Positions 35-51,701 of a DNA stretch of 64,000 nt are shown one piece after another. The notes below the pieces were generated by a model. The model was not told the origin of the DNA and did not search any database. It saw only the letters and a list, made by a program, of their open reading frames with translations. Position 1 is the stretch's first letter. Each line of letters begins with the position of its first letter. The translations under genes and the position numbers were made by a program. Source of the stretch: a virus; the IMG/VR virus record IMGVR_UViG_3300031999_000009, positions 19,274-83,273 of that record, one strand, 5' to 3'.

Positions 35-538
35 ATGGGCATCCTCCTGACCTTCTCCGTGACCGGCGCCGAATCGGTGCAAAAGGGCCTGGCGGCTATT
101 CAGGCGGCCGTGCAAGACCTGACGCCGTTCTGGAAAGACGTGTTCGCGCCGAAGTATTTCGCGCTTGTGCAGGACCAGTTCAACACCGGTGGTCGCCCGC
201 GCGGCGAAGGTGGTCGGTTCAGTGGTGGCGCGTGGGCTCGCTTGTCACCGAAGTATGCAGCCTGGAAGAAAGTGCACTATCCAGGCGCGAAGATTCTGCA
301 GCGCACGGGCGATTTGCAGGAATCGCTTCGGTGGAACGGCAACGACCTCGGCAACGGTGGGATCTTCGACGCGCAGCCCTCGTTCGTGATTGCCGGCACG
401 TCGGTGCCGTATGGCCGGTATCACCAGGATGGCACGGGCTCGATGCCGGCGAGGCAGTTCATGCCGCAGCCTGATCCGGCAGTGTTCGCGCCGCTGATGC
501 TGAAGTGGATTCTGAAGGCGCAGGCCGGTGCAGCTTGA
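35..538 (+). CDS. Phage virion morphogenesis / tail completion (neck) protein
   Basis: 167 aa; W-x-x-LSPKY...ILQRTGDL...YGRYHQ-x-G...MPARQF pattern typical of HK97 gp10/Mu gpG-like neck proteins; lies upstream of the tail genes. Confidence 0.75.
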   Translation: MGILLTFSVTGAESVQKGLAAIQAAVQDLTPFWKDVFAPKYFALVQDQFNTGGRPRGEGGRFSGGAWARLSPKYAAWKKVHYPGAKILQRTGDLQESLRWNGNDLGNGGIFDAQPSFVIAGTSVPYGRYHQDGTGSMPARQFMPQPDPAVFAPLMLKWILKAQAGAA

Positions 539-29492: not shown

Positions 29493-29839
29493 GAGTCGGG
29501 TTCACGGGCACACGCGCGGGCATGTCGTCGAAGCAACTCGATGCGTTCGCCGCCGTCTTGAAAACCTATGCGATTGACGAATTCCACCACGGAGGCGCGC
29601 GTGGCGCTGACACCGAGGCGGATGCGGCCGTGAAGCTGATCGCCCCGCTTGCCGCTGTTCACGTGCTCAGGCCCAAGGGCCGCGGCGACGAGTTGGCTCG
29701 GAATCGCGTAATCGTGTCGCGCGTCGATGTGCTGATCGCGGCGCCACTTCAGGACGAGGAAATCACGCGAAGTGGCACGTGGGCCACGATTCGCTACGCA
29801 CGGGCGGCTGGAAAGCCCGTGATTCAGTTGCCGCGATGA
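29489..29839 (+). CDS. SLOG-superfamily (YspA/DprA-like) protein
   Basis: GFTGTR...HHGGARGAD...ARNRVIV...SGTWATIRYARAAGKPV. Confidence 0.75.
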   Translation: MRVGFTGTRAGMSSKQLDAFAAVLKTYAIDEFHHGGARGADTEADAAVKLIAPLAAVHVLRPKGRGDELARNRVIVSRVDVLIAAPLQDEEITRSGTWATIRYARAAGKPVIQLPR

Positions 29840-30279
29840 CGATTCTGCCGACACATACGTGCTTCGACGACGCTATGGAGGTCGTCAACTTGCTGCTGAA
29901 GGAGGGCGACGCCGGTCGTATCGACAAGGCCAGGCTGGTGCATGGGATCTGCCTCGCGCCAGACGGCCCACTGGCCGGCACGCCGTTCGCGCACGCTTGG
30001 GTAGAAGACGGCACCGCGTGTATCCAAGCCGGCATGCTGAACGGCGAAAAGGTGTTCTTCGGCGTTGAGCGGGAAGAGTATTTGCGCTCCATGCGCGTGC
30101 AGGCGAGCACGTCGTATACGCTCTTGGAGGCGTGCGTGCAGAACCTCGCGAGTTTCCACTTTGGGCCGTGGGAACCTGCATATCTGGCCATCATTCGTCC
30201 AGGCGATCGGACGATTTTCTCGGAGGACGACCATGGGCGCGACGGCGGGAGCGAACAAGGACCGGAAGCTGCTTCTTGA
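29836..30279 (+). CDS. Hypothetical protein (Cys...HAWVE; possible transglutaminase/papain-like fold)
   Basis: CFDDA...LVHG...HAWVE motifs. Confidence 0.4.
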   Translation: MTILPTHTCFDDAMEVVNLLLKEGDAGRIDKARLVHGICLAPDGPLAGTPFAHAWVEDGTACIQAGMLNGEKVFFGVEREEYLRSMRVQASTSYTLLEACVQNLASFHFGPWEPAYLAIIRPGDRTIFSEDDHGRDGGSEQGPEAAS

Positions 30280-30819: not shown

Positions 30820-30874
30820 GGTTCGTTCACCCGGCGGCTGATTGACGGCCGCCAAGACAGAGGAGATGACGACG

Positions 30875-32452
30875 ATGGCGAAGAAGATCCCTCCCGTGCC
30901 TGACGACGTGACCGTCATTGCACCCGTGCCCACCGAGAAGCCGACCGCGGCTGAGAGCGCGCTTCTCCAGGCGTTCAAGGCTGCGCGCCGCGTCTCGACG
31001 CCGATCGTGGCGATCGAGACTCCTGACGCGGCGGCCACAATCGCCATGATTCGGAAGGTGCTGAACGACAAGGCACCGACGCTCTCGTGGGATTGTGCGC
31101 GCGGCCTGAAGGGCCTCAACGATCTCGGCAAGCAGGCGATGGCCAACCTCGGTATCGACCCGCAGCTCACCGTGAACGCCACGGAGACGTTGCTGGCGTG
31201 CGAGAACCTGCCCGAATTGTCGGTGGTGTTCATGCACAACTTCCACCGTCAGGTGAACGAGGCGTCAGTTATCCAGGCGCTCTGGAACCTGCGCGACGTG
31301 TTCAAGGTCAACAAGCGGATGATCGTGCCGTTGGGCTCGAGCTTCCAGATGCCGCCGGAACTGGCCGGCGACGTCATCACCCTCGACGAACCGCTTCCGA
31401 CCCGCGAGGAGCTGTCGGCGACGCTCGACCAGCAGCACAAGAACGCGGAGCTGCCGTTGCCGTCCGAGGAAGTCAGGGAAGCAGCGTTGGACGCCCTTGT
31501 GGGGTTGTCGAGCTTCACGGCGGAGCAGGTGGCGGCGATGTCGCTCACGAAGCAGGGCGTCAACGTCGCAAAGCTGTGGGAGCGCAAGGTCAAGGCCATC
31601 CAGAACACCGACGGCCTGCGCGTGTGGCAGGGACGCCCCGGCGACACGACGATGGACGAGCTGCGCGGCATCGACAACGTGGTCGAGTTCATGCGGAAGT
31701 TGGTGCACGCCGACGCGTTCGGCGCCATCGTCTTCATCGACGAGATGGACAAGGCGTTCGCGGGTGGCATGTCCGAGCACACCGGTGACTCGGGCGTCAG
31801 CAAGGATCAGGTCGGCACGGTGCTGAGCTACATCGAGGACACGGGCTCACTCGGCGTGTTGCTGGCCGGCGTGGCTGGCACGGGCAAGACCCAGCTGGCG
31901 AAGGCCACTGGCGTGGAAGCGGGCAAGCCGGTCATCGTGTTCGACCTCGGCGGGATGAAGGGCGGCACGGTTGGCCAGTCGGAGCGCACGATTCGCGCCG
32001 CGCTCAAGGTGGTGACGGCCACGGCGGAGGGCCGCGTGCTGTTCATCGGAACGGCGAACCGGACCACGCTGTTCACGCCAGAGCTCAACCGACGGTTCCC
32101 CGACCAGTTCTTCTACGACACGCCAGACGACGCCGGTCGCTCGGCAATCTGGCCTGTCTACGCGGCGAAGAACGGACTGACGGCCTCGCAGGCGCACGTG
32201 CCGCAGGGCTTCGACGCTGGGTGGACTGGCGCGGAAATCAAGCGCGCCTGTGAGCGGGCGGCCTTGTTCGGCTGCACGGTGGTCGAGGCGGCGCGGTTCA
32301 TCATCCCGTCCAGCGTGAGCGGCAAGCGCCAGATCGAGGCGCTCCGGCACGAAGCGGCTGGTCGGTTCCTGTCCGCCAGCTACGACGGGTTCTACCAGGT
32401 GCCGCAGGCGCCACAGGTGCCCGTCCAGCAGCGGTCGATTGAGGTGCAGTGA
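30875..32452 (+). CDS. AAA+ ATPase (Ycf46-like) with permuted motif order
   Basis: IVFIDEMDK (Walker B), GVAGTGKT (Walker A), VGQSE, TAN (sensor 1), PELNRRF (Arg finger), WTGAEI; degenerate N-terminal AAA-like domain. Confidence 0.88.
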   Translation: MAKKIPPVPDDVTVIAPVPTEKPTAAESALLQAFKAARRVSTPIVAIETPDAAATIAMIRKVLNDKAPTLSWDCARGLKGLNDLGKQAMANLGIDPQLTVNATETLLACENLPELSVVFMHNFHRQVNEASVIQALWNLRDVFKVNKRMIVPLGSSFQMPPELAGDVITLDEPLPTREELSATLDQQHKNAELPLPSEEVREAALDALVGLSSFTAEQVAAMSLTKQGVNVAKLWERKVKAIQNTDGLRVWQGRPGDTTMDELRGIDNVVEFMRKLVHADAFGAIVFIDEMDKAFAGGMSEHTGDSGVSKDQVGTVLSYIEDTGSLGVLLAGVAGTGKTQLAKATGVEAGKPVIVFDLGGMKGGTVGQSERTIRAALKVVTATAEGRVLFIGTANRTTLFTPELNRRFPDQFFYDTPDDAGRSAIWPVYAAKNGLTASQAHVPQGFDAGWTGAEIKRACERAALFGCTVVEAARFIIPSSVSGKRQIEALRHEAAGRFLSASYDGFYQVPQAPQVPVQQRSIEVQ

Positions 32453-32868
32453 TGGCAGCCGCACAAGCCGGTTGGACCGACTACGCCATCCTGCAGGCGT
32501 CCTCTGGCAACGGGAAGCAGTGGAAGGTGCAGGTCAACGTCGAGGGCTTGTTCCGGTGCAACTGCCCGTCGTTCATCTTCAGCAAGATGTCGCCCAAGAC
32601 GTGCAAGCACTGCAAGCGCTGTGAGGAGCAGCGGCTGACGGAAACGAAGGTCAAGCCGGTGGCTCGTCCGGCAATCGCGCCCTACTGGGACGAGGCGATG
32701 GGCTTCCTCGATAAGATGCTGACGCAGGCCAGCGCGTCCGTGACGGCCGCACAGAAGAAGGTCATGTGCGACGTCCTGGCGACCAAGCTGGCGCTGTTCA
32801 GGCCCATGGCGGCAGCGGTGGAAGTCACCGAGGTCGTGGGCATCCGGCGGATCACGTTCGACGACTGA
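32452..32868 (+). CDS. SWIM zinc-finger protein
   Basis: CNCPSF...CKH; ends RRITFDD. Confidence 0.7.
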   Translation: MAAAQAGWTDYAILQASSGNGKQWKVQVNVEGLFRCNCPSFIFSKMSPKTCKHCKRCEEQRLTETKVKPVARPAIAPYWDEAMGFLDKMLTQASASVTAAQKKVMCDVLATKLALFRPMAAAVEVTEVVGIRRITFDD

Positions 32869-33376: not shown

Positions 33377-33697
33377 ATGCTGCACTACAAGCTCGACACT
33401 GACGGACAGCCTGTCGCCTGCGATCTCTTGGAGTGGGCCACGTGGTTCGAGGGCGCCGGCGCCTCACGTATCGTCGCCCAGGACATGGTCGGTGACGTGC
33501 AGGTGAGCACGGTCTTCCTCGCGCTGGACCACGACTGGTCTGGCGCGGGGCCTCCCGTGCTCTGGGAGACGATGATCTTCGGCGGACGACACTCGGACTA
33601 CCAGCGCCGCTACTCGTCGCGTGAGGCGGCCGTGGCGGGCCATGTTGAGGCGCTGGCGCTGGCGTCTGTGACACGGAACATCGAGTTGGAGGACTGA
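33377..33697 (+). CDS. Conserved phage hypothetical protein
   Basis: VSTVFLALDH...WETMIFGG...RYSS; ends RNIELED. Confidence 0.65.
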   Translation: MLHYKLDTDGQPVACDLLEWATWFEGAGASRIVAQDMVGDVQVSTVFLALDHDWSGAGPPVLWETMIFGGRHSDYQRRYSSREAAVAGHVEALALASVTRNIELED

Positions 33698-39677: not shown

Positions 39678-40112
39678 ATGAGTGCCAAGAGAAAGGTTCA
39701 GATTCCGTCCATTGGCGACCTGTTGGTGCTCGCCGCACCGTGGCAATTCCACGTGGTGAATGAGCATCGGAACGCCACGCTTGTCGCTCACATGGGGAAA
39801 ACAGTGCCAGGCCGGTCCTATTACCCGCTGGGCGTCACCCAAGCCGCGTCATGGCACCCGTTGCCTTCGACGCTCTGGTGCACGATCCCCTCCGGCGCCG
39901 TGCTCCGCGTCTCGCGTATCTACATCCGCGCTGGTGCGGCCGCCTACGACTCAGTGACGTTCTGGTGGAAGCCATCGCCGAAGGCGAAATCGGTTCGATT
40001 CTTCGCTCGACTGCCAGATGTGAACAAGATGTCGGTGCGCTCTGATGCCTGGACCGCCCGAGACGAGGCCGACCCGGTCCTTGGTGCCCGAGCGATCGAA
40101 TTGGAGGAGTGA
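39678..40112 (+). CDS. Conserved phage hypothetical protein
   Basis: GAGGAG RBS; IP.IGD...EHRN...RIYIR...YDSVTF...RFFA; ends RAIELEE. Confidence 0.6.
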   Translation: MSAKRKVQIPSIGDLLVLAAPWQFHVVNEHRNATLVAHMGKTVPGRSYYPLGVTQAASWHPLPSTLWCTIPSGAVLRVSRIYIRAGAAAYDSVTFWWKPSPKAKSVRFFARLPDVNKMSVRSDAWTARDEADPVLGARAIELEE

Positions 40113-48720: not shown

Positions 48721-48969
48721 ATGGTCAACAGCACACGTAAGCTCTCATTGGTTAGCAGGCGCATCCTGGGCATTCGCGAGGACGAGCTCGCGCCCGAGGT
48801 GCCACCTGCGCAGTGGGGTGTGCGGATGAACAACGTCCCGGTCTTCATGGGGCCGAACCTGCACTGGGTGGATGTCACTCGCGCATTTCGGTTCGACTCC
48901 CCCGAGCTTGCCCAGTCCTACGCGGACAACATGGGTTACTCGGACGTCGTCACAGTGGAGGCGTTGTGA
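48721..48969 (+). CDS. Hypothetical protein (possibly leaderless)
   Basis: ATG 6 nt after the -10 box of P7; no RBS. Confidence 0.4.
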   Translation: MVNSTRKLSLVSRRILGIREDELAPEVPPAQWGVRMNNVPVFMGPNLHWVDVTRAFRFDSPELAQSYADNMGYSDVVTVEAL

Positions 48970-49211
48970 GCGAGCACACCTTCCGCATCGAGGACGGGCA
49001 CTTGCGCTTCGTCTACGACGACGCGGTGGCGGAGCTACTCGACGAGGGCACGGTGGCGGTCTGCCGTGTCAGCCACGTGGAGCCAGCAGAGGGCGGCGGA
49101 TGGACGGCCGACATGAGTCCGGTGGATGGTCCCGTGTTGGGGCCGTTCCAATTGAGGCAGCAGGCGCTCGACGCCGAGCGTGCCTGGTTAACGAAAGAGA
49201 GGGGATTGTGA
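48966..49211 (+). CDS. Conserved hypothetical protein of the AAA/DUF1257/DUF2997 module
   Basis: R.SHVEP...W.AD.SPV.GP.LGPF..R..AL.AE.AWL. Confidence 0.6.
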   Translation: MSEHTFRIEDGHLRFVYDDAVAELLDEGTVAVCRVSHVEPAEGGGWTADMSPVDGPVLGPFQLRQQALDAERAWLTKERGL

Positions 49212-49651
49212 GTCACGTAGCAGACGTCGATATCAAGTTCCGCGACTTGGCCGCCTGCGCAGCCGCAGCGAAGGCCCTGGGCGGGGAGTTCATGGAGGGC
49301 CAGCGGACGCACAAGTGGTATGGCCGGTTCATGAACGACTGGAACTCGCAGGACGCCGCGGCGAAGCGGCGCGACCCGAAGACCTTCGGGAAGTGCGACC
49401 ACGCCATTCGGTTCCCCGGCGTGGACTACGAGATTGGGCTCTGCAAGGAGCCCGATGGCACCTTCACCGCCGTCTACGATTCGTGGGGCAGCGGTCAGGG
49501 CATCGTCAAGGCGTGCGGCGGCCTGAAGCTGCCGTTCCTGGCGAACGAATACGCGGCGGCGGTCACGACGCGGATGCTGGCTCGGAAGGGGTTCCGGGTC
49601 ACGCGCACGGTCGACAAGCAGGGCGCAATTGTCCTGAAGGCGGTGAACTGA
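49208..49651 (+). CDS. DUF1257 (Ycf35)-like protein
   Basis: MSHVA.VD....DL....AA...LG...YEIGL......D.W...Y......ARKGF.V. Confidence 0.65.
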   Translation: MSHVADVDIKFRDLAACAAAAKALGGEFMEGQRTHKWYGRFMNDWNSQDAAAKRRDPKTFGKCDHAIRFPGVDYEIGLCKEPDGTFTAVYDSWGSGQGIVKACGGLKLPFLANEYAAAVTTRMLARKGFRVTRTVDKQGAIVLKAVN

Positions 49652-49818
49652 TGGCGTCTCTCACGGTGCGGATTGTCGACGGCGAGGCGGTGGTTACCGC
49701 GGACGGATCGCCGACGTCCTGCAAGGCGGCTCACGACGTGGAGGCGGCGCTCGGGAAGGTCACGAAGTCTGTGGCCACGGGCACCAAGGCCGAGACGACC
49801 AAGCTGGTGCAGAAGTGA
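49651..49818 (+). CDS. DUF2997-like small protein
   Basis: 55 aa; I.DG...V...G...SC......EAALG; TGATG-coupled. Confidence 0.55.
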   Translation: MASLTVRIVDGEAVVTADGSPTSCKAAHDVEAALGKVTKSVATGTKAETTKLVQK

Positions 49819-50126
49819 ACCGGGGCCCCGAGCCGGCTTCGAATGTCGTGCTGATGTGCGCGGAGCACGCGTCGAAGCCGGACCCCAAGTGGCATGGATG
49901 GCCCTTGGCGAAATACGTGGGACTCCACGTCAAGCGGTCCTTCCCGATCGCTGGGCGCGTCGGGAACGAGCACATGTGGGTGCGCGTCAAGTTCGTAACG
50001 CCCATAGGGCAGCTGACGGGCGTCCTCGACAATGATCCGCAGTTCGACGTCGGCGTGATGTGCGGCGACATGGTCACCTTCGACGTGACCGACATCGAAG
50101 ACGTGATAGTATCAAAGGAAGGGTGA
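49815..50126 (+). CDS. DUF2314-like hypothetical protein
   Basis: EHMWV.V.....G.LDNDP......GD.V.F...DIED. Confidence 0.5.
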   Translation: MNRGPEPASNVVLMCAEHASKPDPKWHGWPLAKYVGLHVKRSFPIAGRVGNEHMWVRVKFVTPIGQLTGVLDNDPQFDVGVMCGDMVTFDVTDIEDVIVSKEG

Positions 50127-50131
50127 CGACG

Positions 50132-51082
50132 ATGACGGCGACGACGATTTCATCCGGCGAACTAGTTGCGGCCAAGACCATCTGCCTCGCGCTCAAAGTG
50201 GGCAGCTTCGGCAACACGAAGCAAGCCTCCCTTGCGGGGGTGCAGTGGGACGTGAACCAGGGCGCCGCGGACGATGACCCCAGCTCCCACCAGCCAGACA
50301 AGACGCTGCTGCGGCTGTCGAAGACCCTGCTCGATTCGCCAGAACTGACGGCGGTCAAGAAGGCCGACCGCGAGCTGGCCGTGGCCATTCGCACCATGGC
50401 GTTCTCGTCGCTGTTCAAGGGTGGCGTCTACATGCTGCCGTTGGCGATGGTGCCCACCGCAGAGGAGTTGCTGAAGGGTGCGATTGCTCGGCGCACGGTG
50501 TTGGTCGAGGCGGCCTGCGCGGCTTACCAGACCCGCATCGACGAAACGGCCGAGCGCCTGGGCGTGACGTTCAACGCGGGCGACTACCCGAGCCCAGAAC
50601 GCTTCCGGGCGTGTTTCTACCTCGAATACTCCTACGTGACATTCGAGACACCGTCACGGTTGAAGGCCGTCAGCGCCGCGTTGTTCCAGGCCGAGACGGA
50701 GAAGGCTCGCGTCCGGTTGGAGTCCGTCGCCGAGGAGTGTCAGCAGACGATGCGCGCTGGGCTCCTGTCGCTGGTCGATCACCTGGCCGAACGGTTGACG
50801 CCGTCCGACGATGGCAAGGCGAAGCGCCTGTCGAACAGCACCATCGGCAACCTGAACGATTTCCTCGCGACGTTCGAGCTTCGGAACGTGACCGACGACG
50901 CCCAACTCGGCGACATCGTTGCGAAGGCTCGTCAGGTCATGCAGGGCCTGGATCACAAGTCGCTGAAGAGCGATGACCTGATTCGGCAGAAGGTCGTGGC
51001 TGAACTGTCCGCCTTGACGGCCGCACTGGACCCGCTGATTGTCGAGAAGGGCACCCGGTCCATCTCGTTCGAGGATGAGTAA
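50132..51082 (+). CDS. DUF3150-like helical protein
   Basis: SK.LLD...G.Y.LP...F...DYP...R..F; ends RSISFEDE. Confidence 0.55.
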   Translation: MTATTISSGELVAAKTICLALKVGSFGNTKQASLAGVQWDVNQGAADDDPSSHQPDKTLLRLSKTLLDSPELTAVKKADRELAVAIRTMAFSSLFKGGVYMLPLAMVPTAEELLKGAIARRTVLVEAACAAYQTRIDETAERLGVTFNAGDYPSPERFRACFYLEYSYVTFETPSRLKAVSAALFQAETEKARVRLESVAEECQQTMRAGLLSLVDHLAERLTPSDDGKAKRLSNSTIGNLNDFLATFELRNVTDDAQLGDIVAKARQVMQGLDHKSLKSDDLIRQKVVAELSALTAALDPLIVEKGTRSISFEDE

Positions 51083-51260
51083 CGTGGCCGGGCTGGCCTG
51101 TATCGACTGCTCCATGCAGGCGTTGGCGGACGGGAAGCCCGTGCCCTATTTCTACGAGACGGCCGAAGAGCACATGGCTCGCGTGCATCCGGACCTAGAG
51201 CTGACGCGCCTCAACCGGGCAAAACTCGAGCGCCAGCTGCGCGAGAAACTGAAGTGACAG

Positions 51261-51701
51261 ATGCCACTGCAACCAACGGCGTCGACGTGGGTCATGAAGG
51301 ACCAGGACGGCGTGCCACACTTCGTGCGCGTCGTCGACATGACCGACACGCACCTCTGGCGCTGGGTCCGCTTCTTCAGGCGGAAGTGGCGAGACAAGGG
51401 GTTCAACGGATCGGACGAGGCGCTCGATCAGGCCATTCGACAGAGCATCGTCACGGCGCCGGCGATCTACGCCGAAGCCTTCAAGCGGAAGGTCGTGCCA
51501 GGTTTGGCCGACCCCGCTCCGAAGGCCCAGCCGAAAGTGCTCCAGCTGTTGTCTCTTGCTTCCTTGATCTCCGTGATGGCTCCACCCGTTGTGGCGCCCA
51601 AGAAGAAACGTCCTCGGTCGGTGGCGACGGTGGCGAAGGCGACGGTGGCGAAGGTCGAAGCTGCTCCAGGCAAACGCCGCATCACTTTAGACGAGGATTA
51701 A
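51261..51701 (+). CDS. Hypothetical protein
   Basis: W..KD.....DMTDTHL motif; ends RRITLDED. Confidence 0.55.
   Translation: MPLQPTASTWVMKDQDGVPHFVRVVDMTDTHLWRWVRFFRRKWRDKGFNGSDEALDQAIRQSIVTAPAIYAEAFKRKVVPGLADPAPKAQPKVLQLLSLASLISVMAPPVVAPKKKRPRSVATVAKATVAKVEAAPGKRRITLDED

What the first reader, a model, noticed from the sequence alone, without database searches (positions are those of the whole stretch)
31650..32120. AAA+ ATPase with swapped internal segments: Walker B precedes Walker A
Seen: after the helix RGIDNVVEFMRKL the protein reads AIVFIDEMDKAFAGG...SGVSKDQVGTVLSYIEDT (Walker B plus its following helix, ~31720-31845). It then reads GVLLAGVAGTGKTQLAKA...FDLGGMKGGTVGQSERTIRAALKVV (Walker A, strand 2, pore loop, ~31855-32015), then VLFIGTANR...PELNRRF (sensor 1, Arg finger). 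Established: classical AAA-clade and Ycf46-like ATPases run Walker A, pore loop, Walker B, sensor 1, Arg finger. Here two adjacent blocks are exchanged in one open frame with all catalytic motifs intact and no second Walker B at the normal position. This is a non-circular permutation. Inference: a rewired but probably active P-loop fold.
Basis: partly seen in the sequence, partly recalled or inferred. Interest (0 to 1): 0.9.

Follow-up and report, generated by a model that had tools for sequence, protein, structure and literature searches.

The report
Phage AAA ATPase with swapped core blocks
A phage gene encodes an ATP-driven AAA motor in which the Walker B strand-helix unit comes before the Walker A unit, and hundreds of relatives inherit this order, so a very conserved enzyme core has been naturally rewired.

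Summary

- **The gene.** ORF 30842..32452 (+, 536 aa; likely start 30875) encodes a tandem AAA ATPase: a degenerate D1 and a catalytic D2.
- **The swap.** In D2, the Walker B strand, pore loop 2 and helix α3 (residues 291-336) lie before the Walker A, pore loop 1 and α2 block (337-397). Sensor 1 and the Arg fingers follow.
- **How widespread.** All 265 database homologues and all 160 fetched loci keep this order. All 121 normal-order relatives (Mycobacterium phage Catdawg gp97 family, phrog_8638) read A then B, with clean block boundaries.
- **Not an assembly error.** Contigs from other samples bridge all three junctions.
- **Fold.** AlphaFold is confident (pLDDT 93.8). Covariation within the permuted family alone recovers exactly the four strand neighbours of the normal 5-1-4-3-2 sheet, so the fold is rebuilt with new connections.
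- **Catalytic residues.** D/E300-E301, K349, N406 and R418 are invariant or nearly so.
- **Lineage differences.** The family lacks the aromatic pore-loop residue. It is linked to a DUF3150-like partner in 137 of 160 loci, against 0 of 80 normal-order loci.

No paper describing this order was found. This scan had already reported the same family on another genome (e1-5768253). ATPase activity and cellular function are untested.

The parts
30842..32452 (+). ORF of the permuted tandem AAA ATPase (536 aa from TTG; likely true start ATG 30875, 525 aa)
   Evidence: the 95%-identical homologue P0002 starts at MAKKI
30959..31546 (+). D1: degenerate AAA-like domain in normal strand order, with no Walker A or B; residues 40-235
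   Evidence: AF2 secondary structure; whole model aligns to p97/Cdc48 D1D2, Z 18.3, rmsd 4.6, 396 aligned; phrog_8638 N-terminal match 37-288
31547..31711 (+). D1-D2 linker and helix α0 of D2 (residues 236-290; RGIDNVVEFMRKL)
31712..31849 (+). Block B, moved ahead: strand β3 with Walker B, pore loop 2 and helix α3 (residues 291-336)
31727..31744 (+). Walker B IVFIDE (I296-E301)
   Evidence: D300 is D in 406 and E in 4 of 410; E301 in 410 of 410
31850..32032 (+). Block A: β1, P-loop, α1, β2, pore loop 1, α2 (residues 337-397)
31868..31891 (+). Walker A GVAGTGKT (G343-T350)
   Evidence: K349 in 409 of 410, S/T350 in 410 of 410; the G before K is G in only 201 of 410
31955..31975 (+). Pore loop 1 MKGGTVG (372-378), lacking the aromatic residue
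   Evidence: position 376 is L/I/H/T/V in the permuted family and Y/F in 119 of 119 normal-order relatives
32033..32401 (+). Block C: β4 with sensor 1 (N406, nt 32057-32059), α4 with Arg fingers R417/R418 (nt 32090-32095), β5 and the helical lid (residues 398-520)
32432..32449 (+). Conserved C-terminal tail RSIEVQ (R531 invariant in A2)
50132..51082 (+). DUF3150-like partner gene (316 aa). It is 17.7 kb away here, but usually 0.1-3 kb downstream of the ATPase in related elements.

Best explanation
The gene encodes a phage tandem AAA ATPase. It has an inactive D1 of normal order and a catalytic D2 of the classical AAA type. In D2 one secondary-structure unit (strand β3 carrying Walker B, pore loop 2 and helix α3; 46 residues) has changed places in the chain with the unit before it (β1, P-loop, α1, β2, pore loop 1, α2; 61 residues).

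Shown here:
- The swap is clean and inherited, and in this sample it arose once.
- Covariation places β3 between β4 and β2, as in every AAA+ protein. The three-dimensional core is therefore the usual 5-1-4-3-2 sheet, reached through three new connections: α0 to β3, α3 to β1, and α2 to β4.

Inferred:
- The Walker B acids sit beside the P-loop lysine.
- The protein hydrolyses ATP in a ring, with R417/R418 acting on the neighbouring subunit.
- It remodels a protein or a protein-DNA complex early in infection, together with DUF3150-like, DUF1257-like and DUF2997-like partners.
- The swap arose by partial tandem duplication of blocks A-B, followed by loss of the outer copies.
For: 1. Order. N-B-A-C is seen in 265 of 265 homologues and 160 of 160 loci. 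N-A-B-C is seen in 121 of 121 Catdawg-type relatives, with abutting block boundaries, and in 79 of 79 scorable normal-order viral loci. BLASTP of P0001 against Catdawg gp97 shows two reciprocal gaps of about 45 residues.
2. Fold. The AF2 model has pLDDT 93.8 and pTM 0.87, with exactly five D2 strands: 295-299, 337-343, 364-367, 399-405 and 421-425. D2 superposes on Vps4 (6oo2_C: Z 16.7, rmsd 2.4 A, 209 aligned within 256..513) and on p97 D2 (3cf0_A: Z 15.8, rmsd 2.8, 205 aligned). About one block length is left unaligned, as expected for a sequential aligner.
3. Covariation in the 410 permuted sequences alone (Neff 302). Of 24,976 pairs, 295-395 ranks 2, 302-403 ranks 3 and 297-401 ranks 17. 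The four best-ranked of the ten strand pairs are β3-β4 (17), β1-β5 (45), β3-β2 (183) and β1-β4 (289), which are exactly the canonical neighbours. The other six pairs rank 522-3214.
4. Selection. E301, N406 and R418 are present in 410 of 410 sequences, K349 in 409 of 410, and D300 is D or E in 410 of 410. Four members carry inteins; in two of them the insert sits in the P-loop.
5. Single clan. The 410 permuted sequences separate from the 119 normal-order sequences with support 0.93 on a branch of length 1.67.
6. Context. The gene lies among SSB, primase-polymerase, ligase and helicase genes.
Against: - No coordinates of the model could be read, so the distance between D300/E301 and K349 was never measured. 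The sheet position of β3 rests on covariation and on indirect structural alignment.
- The covariation analysis has a modest Neff (about 300 for 230 columns) and could not be benchmarked against a structure.
- AF2 may lean towards the canonical AAA fold it has learned.
- In 209 of 410 members, the glycine before the P-loop lysine is A, S, C or T. The aromatic pore-loop residue is absent in the family. Both could mean weakened or changed activity.
- No ATPase, oligomer or expression data exist. The tree is unrooted and sampled around two queries, so 'single origin' holds only for this sample. The duplication-loss route has no intermediate form to support it.
Confidence: 0.8

Rival explanations
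1. Assembly or chimera artefact: the order arises from a misjoined metagenomic contig.
For: The genome is a metagenome-derived IMG/VR record estimated at 68% complete.
Against: The same order is present in 265 of 265 homologues and 160 of 160 independent loci, including an isolated phage (Tunturi_3) and a complete Nitrospira moscoviensis chromosome. Contigs of runs X2, X3 and X4 bridge the three junctions with 0 differences.
Confidence: 0.01
2. The DEMDK block is not part of the D2 active site. It would belong to the degenerate D1 or form a separate element, leaving D2 as an ATP-binding module without a working Walker B.
For: The block lies on the D1 side of the P-loop in the chain. Coordinates of the model were not available to measure distances.
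Against: In the model, D1 already has five strands and a lid of its own. In the top 100 full-length couplings, block B pairs 19 times with D2 blocks A and C and once with the whole N-terminal part. This is despite N offering more pairs (10% of all pairs against 7.5%). Residues 302/303 couple to G403, next to sensor 1, and 297 couples to 401. D/E300-E301 are invariant.
Confidence: 0.04
3. The fold is rebuilt, but the protein is a weak or non-hydrolysing nucleotide switch or scaffold rather than a translocating motor.
For: The glycine before the P-loop lysine is replaced in 209 of 410 members. The aromatic pore-loop residue (Y/F in 119 of 119 normal-order relatives) is L/I/H/T/V here, and the preceding lysine (118 of 119 in the relatives) is S or G.
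Against: The Walker B glutamate, sensor 1 Asn and one Arg finger are kept in 410 of 410 sequences, and the second Arg in 389 of 410. That is the pattern of a hydrolysing AAA site. Two members carry an intein in the P-loop, a site type that inteins favour in essential motifs (the preference is recalled knowledge).
Confidence: 0.13

Closest known systems
Normal-order phage AAA ATPases of the Mycobacterium phage Catdawg gp97 type (phrog_8638, 'AAA-ATPase' of cluster-O-like mycobacteriophages)
   Same: Same two-domain plan: a degenerate D1 and a catalytic D2. All four block HMMs built from the permuted family match (N, A, B, C). Shared sequence features include IDExEK, the GDxGVS helix, TAN, PE..R..RF, and a C-terminal R-x-[LI]-[DE]-hydrophobic tail. 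Catdawg gp97 matches phrog_8638 in one piece at E 7.7e-287.
   Different: Block order is N-A-B-C there and N-B-A-C here. The normal-order proteins have an aromatic pore-loop residue and a strict GK[ST]. No DUF3150-like partner lies within 8 kb in 0 of 80 normal-order loci, against 74 of 80 and 63 of 80 permuted loci. Identity is about 25%.
Classical-clade AAA ATPases with tandem rings (Cdc48/p97, NVL, Rix7, Afg2/Drg1) and Vps4/spastin single rings
   Same: Best structural matches are p97 7lmz_C (Z 18.3 over both domains) and Vps4 6oo2_C (Z 16.7, rmsd 2.4 A, for D2). PDB sequence hits reach E 1.6e-11. Walker A, Walker B, sensor 1 and two Arg fingers are all present.
   Different: All of these read Walker A, pore loop 1, Walker B, sensor 1. 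Here D1 has no nucleotide motifs and D2 is block-swapped. Sequence alignments to them skip or double-use residues 378-402.
Circularly permuted P-loop GTPases (YlqF/YjeQ type; recalled, not tested here)
   Same: A natural reordering of nucleotide-binding motifs within a P-loop fold that keeps activity.
   Different: Those are circular permutations, which can be explained by duplication and trimming of the ends, and they occur in TRAFAC GTPases. This case exchanges two internal neighbouring blocks in an ASCE/AAA+ core, with both termini unchanged.
Non-circular permutation of the HK97 capsid fold in Bordetella phage BPP-1 (PMC3863775; seen only as title and term count in the listing)
   Same: A natural non-circular permutation of a conserved fold in a phage protein.
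   Different: It is a structural protein, not an enzyme active-site core, and an unrelated fold.

Membership tests
AAA+ classical clade (Pfam PF00004 AAA) | Score above the Pfam gathering threshold | tested here: met
   46.8 bits against a cutoff of 21.2, E 5.2e-12, but in 3 stretches; the best is 339-402 on model positions 1-63 of 131
AAA+ classical clade (Pfam PF00004 AAA) | Walker A GxxxxGK[ST] | tested here: met
   GVAGTGKT at 343-350. K349 is kept in 409 of 410 family members, but the preceding G is kept in only 201 of 410.
AAA+ classical clade (Pfam PF00004 AAA) | Walker B hhhhDE | tested here: met
   IVFIDE at 296-301; E301 in 410 of 410
AAA+ classical clade (Pfam PF00004 AAA) | Linear order: Walker A, pore loop 1, Walker B, sensor 1, Arg finger | tested here: not met
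   Walker B (296) precedes Walker A (343)
AAA+ classical clade (Pfam PF00004 AAA) | Sensor 1 Asn and second region of homology with two Arg | tested here: met
   N406 in 410 of 410, R418 in 410 of 410, R417 in 389 of 410
AAA+ classical clade (Pfam PF00004 AAA) | β-sheet order 5-1-4-3-2 with a helical lid | tested here: inconclusive
   Supported indirectly. The four canonical strand neighbours are the four best-coupled strand pairs. D2 superposes on Vps4 at 2.4 A rmsd. Model coordinates could not be inspected.
AAA+ classical clade (Pfam PF00004 AAA) | Aromatic-hydrophobic-Gly pore loop 1 | tested here: not met
   Position 376 is T here and L/I/H/T/V across the family; it is Y/F in 119 of 119 normal-order relatives
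phrog_8638 (Catdawg gp97-type AAA ATPase) | End-to-end match to the family profile | tested here: not met
   P0001 matches at E 1.4e-39 but in 4 stretches, the best being 37-288 on 17-290 of 568. Catdawg gp97 matches in 1 stretch, 1-558 of 568.
   No Ycf46-specific model appeared among the Pfam or NCBIfam hits. One homologue carries the source name 'SpoVK/Ycf46/Vps4 family AAA+-type ATPase' (P0079). The motif resemblance is recalled.
Hexameric ring AAA motor | Ring oligomer with Arg fingers acting on the neighbouring subunit | not testable with these tools

The most novel reading that the evidence does not exclude
This would be the first natural non-circular permutation inside the catalytic ASCE core of an AAA+ motor. 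It arose once and then spread to thousands of phage and prophage genes in Acidobacteriota, Nitrospirota, Armatimonadota and others. On this reading it is not a neutral rewiring. The new chain order ties pore loop 2 and helix α3 directly to the P-loop strand. It came together with loss of the aromatic pore loop, a relaxed P-loop and a dedicated DUF3150/DUF1257/DUF2997-like partner set. It also came with short C-terminal R-x-I-x-hydrophobic-acidic tails, shared by the ATPase, its partner and other early proteins, that would act as docking signals. Together these would form a new kind of AAA machine with a non-threading mode of action in phage early development.
Probability: 0.25. Interest if true: 0.9.

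Novelty: new variant of a known kind. Interest (0 to 1): 0.78.

Why it matters
- **A textbook constant is broken.** The order Walker A, then Walker B, then sensor 1 is treated as fixed across P-loop ASCE ATPases, and profile models and annotation pipelines build it in.
- **A large family is mis-modelled.** The family has at least 150 clusters at 50% identity, at least 429 IMG/VR contigs and 586 prokaryote-genome contigs. Its exchanged blocks mean that Pfam, PHROG and PDB searches align it only in pieces.
- **A natural experiment.** It tests how far chain connectivity can change while an AAA fold and active site persist. That bears on protein folding, on designing permuted motors, and on how non-circular permutations arise.
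- **It can be tested at the bench.** The isolated phage Tunturi_3 carries the gene (gp103) and its partner genes, and a normal-order sister family is available for comparison.

Tried and rejected
- **Model coordinates.** I looked for them in the script box so that I could measure the Walker B to P-loop distance, but none are provided. I used covariation instead.
- **Ring assembly.** After I named the protein as partner, the tool was reported not available. Oligomerisation therefore has no test here.
- **Viral structure library.** Fold search 'viral' was switched off.
- **Partner protein.** There is no Pfam or PHROG hit for the window copy. The PDB profile search gave nothing below E 0.036 and Foldseek gave nothing at E <= 0.001. 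VIA wide gave only generic four-helix-bundle matches on residues 176-309, with Z at most 9.4. Its fold and function stay unknown. DUF3150 kinship rests on 2 of 66 homologues with PF11348 and on Atlas clusters in which 12-20% of members carry it.
- **DUF1257 label for 49211-49651.** Only E 0.14, below the cutoff.
- **Expression.** No RNA holder was listed.
- **Literature.** Searches found no paper on an AAA or P-loop ATPase with Walker B before Walker A. In PMC7824862, read through 'find' passages only, the permutations mentioned concern methylases. In PMC11924767 (Tunturi phages), also read through 'find' passages only, 'ATPase' and 'AAA' occur 0 times in the main text. Its supplementary annotation tables could not be read and may name gp103. 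The library lacks most subscription journals.
- **Intermediate form.** A B-A-B-C form that would support duplication-loss was not seen among the sequences examined. Only the best 120 to 150 hits of each search are visible.
- **Combined covariation run.** The run mixed permuted and normal-order sequences and had 23 misnumbered D1 columns. I did not rely on it.
Full report
**The gene and the observation**

The window is part of an 83,273-bp IMG/VR virus record estimated at 68% complete. All long genes lie on the + strand. The ORF 30842..32452 (536 aa from a TTG; the close homologue P0002 starts at the ATG at 30875) sits among a single-strand DNA-binding protein (SSB), a primase-polymerase, a DNA ligase, a methyltransferase and a helicase.

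After RGIDNVVEFMRKLVHADAFG comes AIVFIDEMDKAF...GDSGVSKDQVGTVLSYIEDTGS (residues 291-336). Next comes LGVLLAGVAGTGKT...FDLGGMKGGTVGQSERTIRAALKVVTATAEG (337-397), then RVLFIGTANR...PELNRRF. A motif scan finds one Walker B (296), one Walker A (343) and one TAN (404), and nothing Walker-B-like after Walker A.

**The order is a family trait, not an artefact**

- The protein database search gave 617 relatives, of which the best 120 are listed at 42-95% identity.
- A profile search of 1.84 billion cluster representatives gave 3,324 proteins at E <= 1e-30. The best 150 are all near full length (one is a 366-aa fragment) at E <= 2e-158.
- All 265 of these proteins have the Walker B block 40-50 residues before the P-loop: 242 by regex and 23 by eye, because their motif is a variant or is interrupted by an intein.
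- IMG/VR holds at least 429 encoding contigs and the species-genome set holds 586. The latter are mostly Acidobacteriota, Nitrospirota (including the complete Nitrospira moscoviensis chromosome), Armatimonadota and Planctomycetota.
- All 160 fetched loci show the same order.
- Logan contigs of sediment metagenomes other than the possible source bridge each of the three junctions with no differences.

**Comparison with normal-order relatives**

Among cultured phages, Tunturiibacter phage Tunturi_3 gp103 (34% identity) has the permuted order. Mycobacterium phage Catdawg gp97 (25% identity) has the normal one.

BLASTP of the two shows two reciprocal gaps of about 45 residues. The window's residues 288-336 align to Catdawg 395-437, which lie after its P-loop, at 45% identity.

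I built HMMs from four column blocks of the permuted family: N (40-290), B (291-336), A (337-397) and C (398-520). All four match 121 of 121 Catdawg-type proteins, always in the order N-A-B-C and with abutting boundaries. In Catdawg these are A 341-397, B 399-438 and C 443-569. It is an exchange of two neighbouring blocks, which makes it a non-circular permutation.

phrog_8638 is the normal-order family. Catdawg gp97 matches it in one piece, while the permuted proteins match in four.

**Is the fold rebuilt?**

AlphaFold2 with 114 family sequences gives pLDDT 93.8 and pTM 0.87.
- D1 (about residues 40-235) has a normal β1-α1-β2-α2-β3-α3-β4-α4-β5 succession and a lid, but no nucleotide motifs.
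- D2 has exactly five strands, in the chain order β3 (295-299), β1 (337-343), β2 (364-367), β4 (399-405) and β5 (421-425).
- The whole model matches the D1D2 of p97, Cdc48, NVL and Rix7 (Foldseek E about 1e-12; VIA Z 18.3).
- D2 alone superposes on Vps4 (Z 16.7, rmsd 2.4 A, 209 aligned within 256..513) and on p97 D2. About one block length stays unaligned, as a sequential aligner must leave it.

- Among 24,976 pairs, 295-395 ranks 2, 302-403 ranks 3, 324-412 ranks 5 and 297-401 ranks 17.
- Of the ten possible strand pairs, the four best-coupled are β3-β4, β1-β5, β3-β2 and β1-β4. These are exactly the four neighbours of the canonical 5-1-4-3-2 sheet. The chance of picking exactly that set is 1 in 210.
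- The strong 295-395 and 294-396 couplings join the start of β3 to the end of α2. In normal-order proteins those two points are linked directly in the chain.
- In a full-length analysis, block B takes part in 19 of the top 100 couplings with D2 blocks A and C and in 1 with the whole N-terminal part.

So the DEMDK block belongs to D2 and occupies the β3 slot.

**Is it active?**

This is inference. Across the 410 sequences, E301, N406 and R418 are invariant. K349 is present in 409, D300 is D in 406 and E in 4, S/T350 is present in 410, and R417 in 389. Four members carry inteins; in two of them the insert sits in the P-loop.

Against full normality:
- The glycine before the lysine is G in only 201 of 410 members, against 119 of 119 normal-order relatives.
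- The aromatic pore-loop-1 residue (Y/F in 119 of 119) is L, I, H, T or V here.
- The preceding lysine (118 of 119 in the relatives) is S or G here.

**Origin**

On a block-wise alignment, the 410 permuted sequences form one clan apart from the 119 normal-order ones (support 0.93, branch length 1.67). This fits a single event, within the limits of sampling around two queries and an unrooted tree. A partial tandem duplication (A-B-A-B-C) followed by loss of the first A and the second B would produce the order. No intermediate was seen, so this route is inferred only.

**Context and function**

- A DUF3150-like protein (window 50132-51082, 316 aa) lies 0.1-3 kb downstream of the ATPase on the same strand in most related elements. 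By HMM it is present in 74 of 80 viral and 63 of 80 genome loci of the permuted family, but in 0 of 80 loci of normal-order relatives.
- In this phage it is 17.7 kb away, in a run with DUF1257-like (weak), DUF2997-like and DUF2314 (E 5.6e-6) genes.
- Its model is confident (pLDDT 90.9) but matches nothing informative.
- Tunturi_3 has the same module: gp102 is DUF1257-like, and gp96, annotated 'HNH endonuclease', is the DUF3150-like protein.
- The ATPase, this partner and four other + strand frames in the window end in R-x-[IVL]-x-hydrophobic followed by one to three acidic or amide residues (D, E, Q or N). That is 6 of 412 + strand frames, against 0 of 419 - strand frames. Normal-order ATPases end in R-V-L-D-L.

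I read the protein as a ring ATPase that remodels an early-infection complex with these partners. The target is unknown.

**Prior knowledge**

Seven literature searches found no description of this order. The nearest concepts are circularly permuted GTPases (recalled) and the non-circularly permuted HK97 fold of phage BPP-1 (listing only).

This scan had already noted the same family. A follow-up on another genome (e1-5768253) reached the same verdict, and first-reader notes exist for another genome (e1-5768248) and for this stretch in an overlapping window (e1-6122584). New here are:
- the covariation test of the sheet order;
- the junction-bridging contigs;
- the residue-level contrasts with the normal-order family;
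- the finding that the DUF3150-like partner is found beside the permuted lineage and not beside the normal-order relatives sampled.

Noticed in passing
window 32432-32449, 32842-32865, 33671-33694, 40086-40109, 51053-51079, 51675-51698: Six + strand frames (the ATPase, the SWIM-like protein just downstream, two hypotheticals, the DUF3150-like partner and a 146-aa protein) end in R-x-[IVL]-x-hydrophobic followed by one to three acidic or amide residues (D, E, Q or N). None of 419 - strand frames does. In the 160 related loci, 92 of 13,795 + strand frames carry the strict tag, against 9 of 15,507 - strand frames. Normal-order ATPases end in RVLDL (116 of 120 by a loose pattern). This may be a shared docking tail.
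   Followed up: partly
window 48966-51701, versus the ATPase at 30842-32452: The partner operon lies 17.7 kb from the ATPase here, but directly downstream of it in most related elements. It holds an SHVEP/GPVLGPF protein, a DUF1257-like protein (E 0.14 only), a small DUF2997-like protein, DUF2314 (E 5.6e-6), the DUF3150-like protein and a tagged 146-aa protein.
   Followed up: partly
homologues P0132, P0197, P0227, P0242 (810-896 aa): Four family members carry inteins: LAGLIDADG, HNH or Hint domains by Pfam. In P0197 and P0227 the insert sits inside the P-loop.
   Followed up: partly
L001 9690-10649 (Tunturi_3 gp96): This gene is annotated 'HNH endonuclease' in the record, but it matches the DUF3150-like partner profile at E 2.4e-83. 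The annotation is probably wrong.
   Followed up: partly
loci L084-L163 (prokaryote genomes), about 0.7 kb from the ATPase: A protein of about 200 aa with a GCxxGCxxCxNP motif, resembling radical-SAM activating enzymes (recalled resemblance), accompanies the ATPase in 43 loci: 39 prokaryote-genome contigs and 4 viral contigs. A SNF2-like helicase of about 750 aa lies upstream in 20 genome loci.
   Followed up: no
window 29779-30279: The 166-aa ORF upstream of the ATPase has a weak Transglut_core3 hit (E 0.0026, below the cutoff). The overlapping 116-aa ORF at 29489-29839 hits phrog_289, 'GTP-binding domain' (E 7e-9).
   Followed up: no
window 30959-31546 (D1): D1 keeps invariant residues of its own at the place of a P-loop (T60, D62, T66) and a WNLRD motif (148-152), although it lacks Walker motifs. 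It may bind something other than a nucleotide.
   Followed up: no
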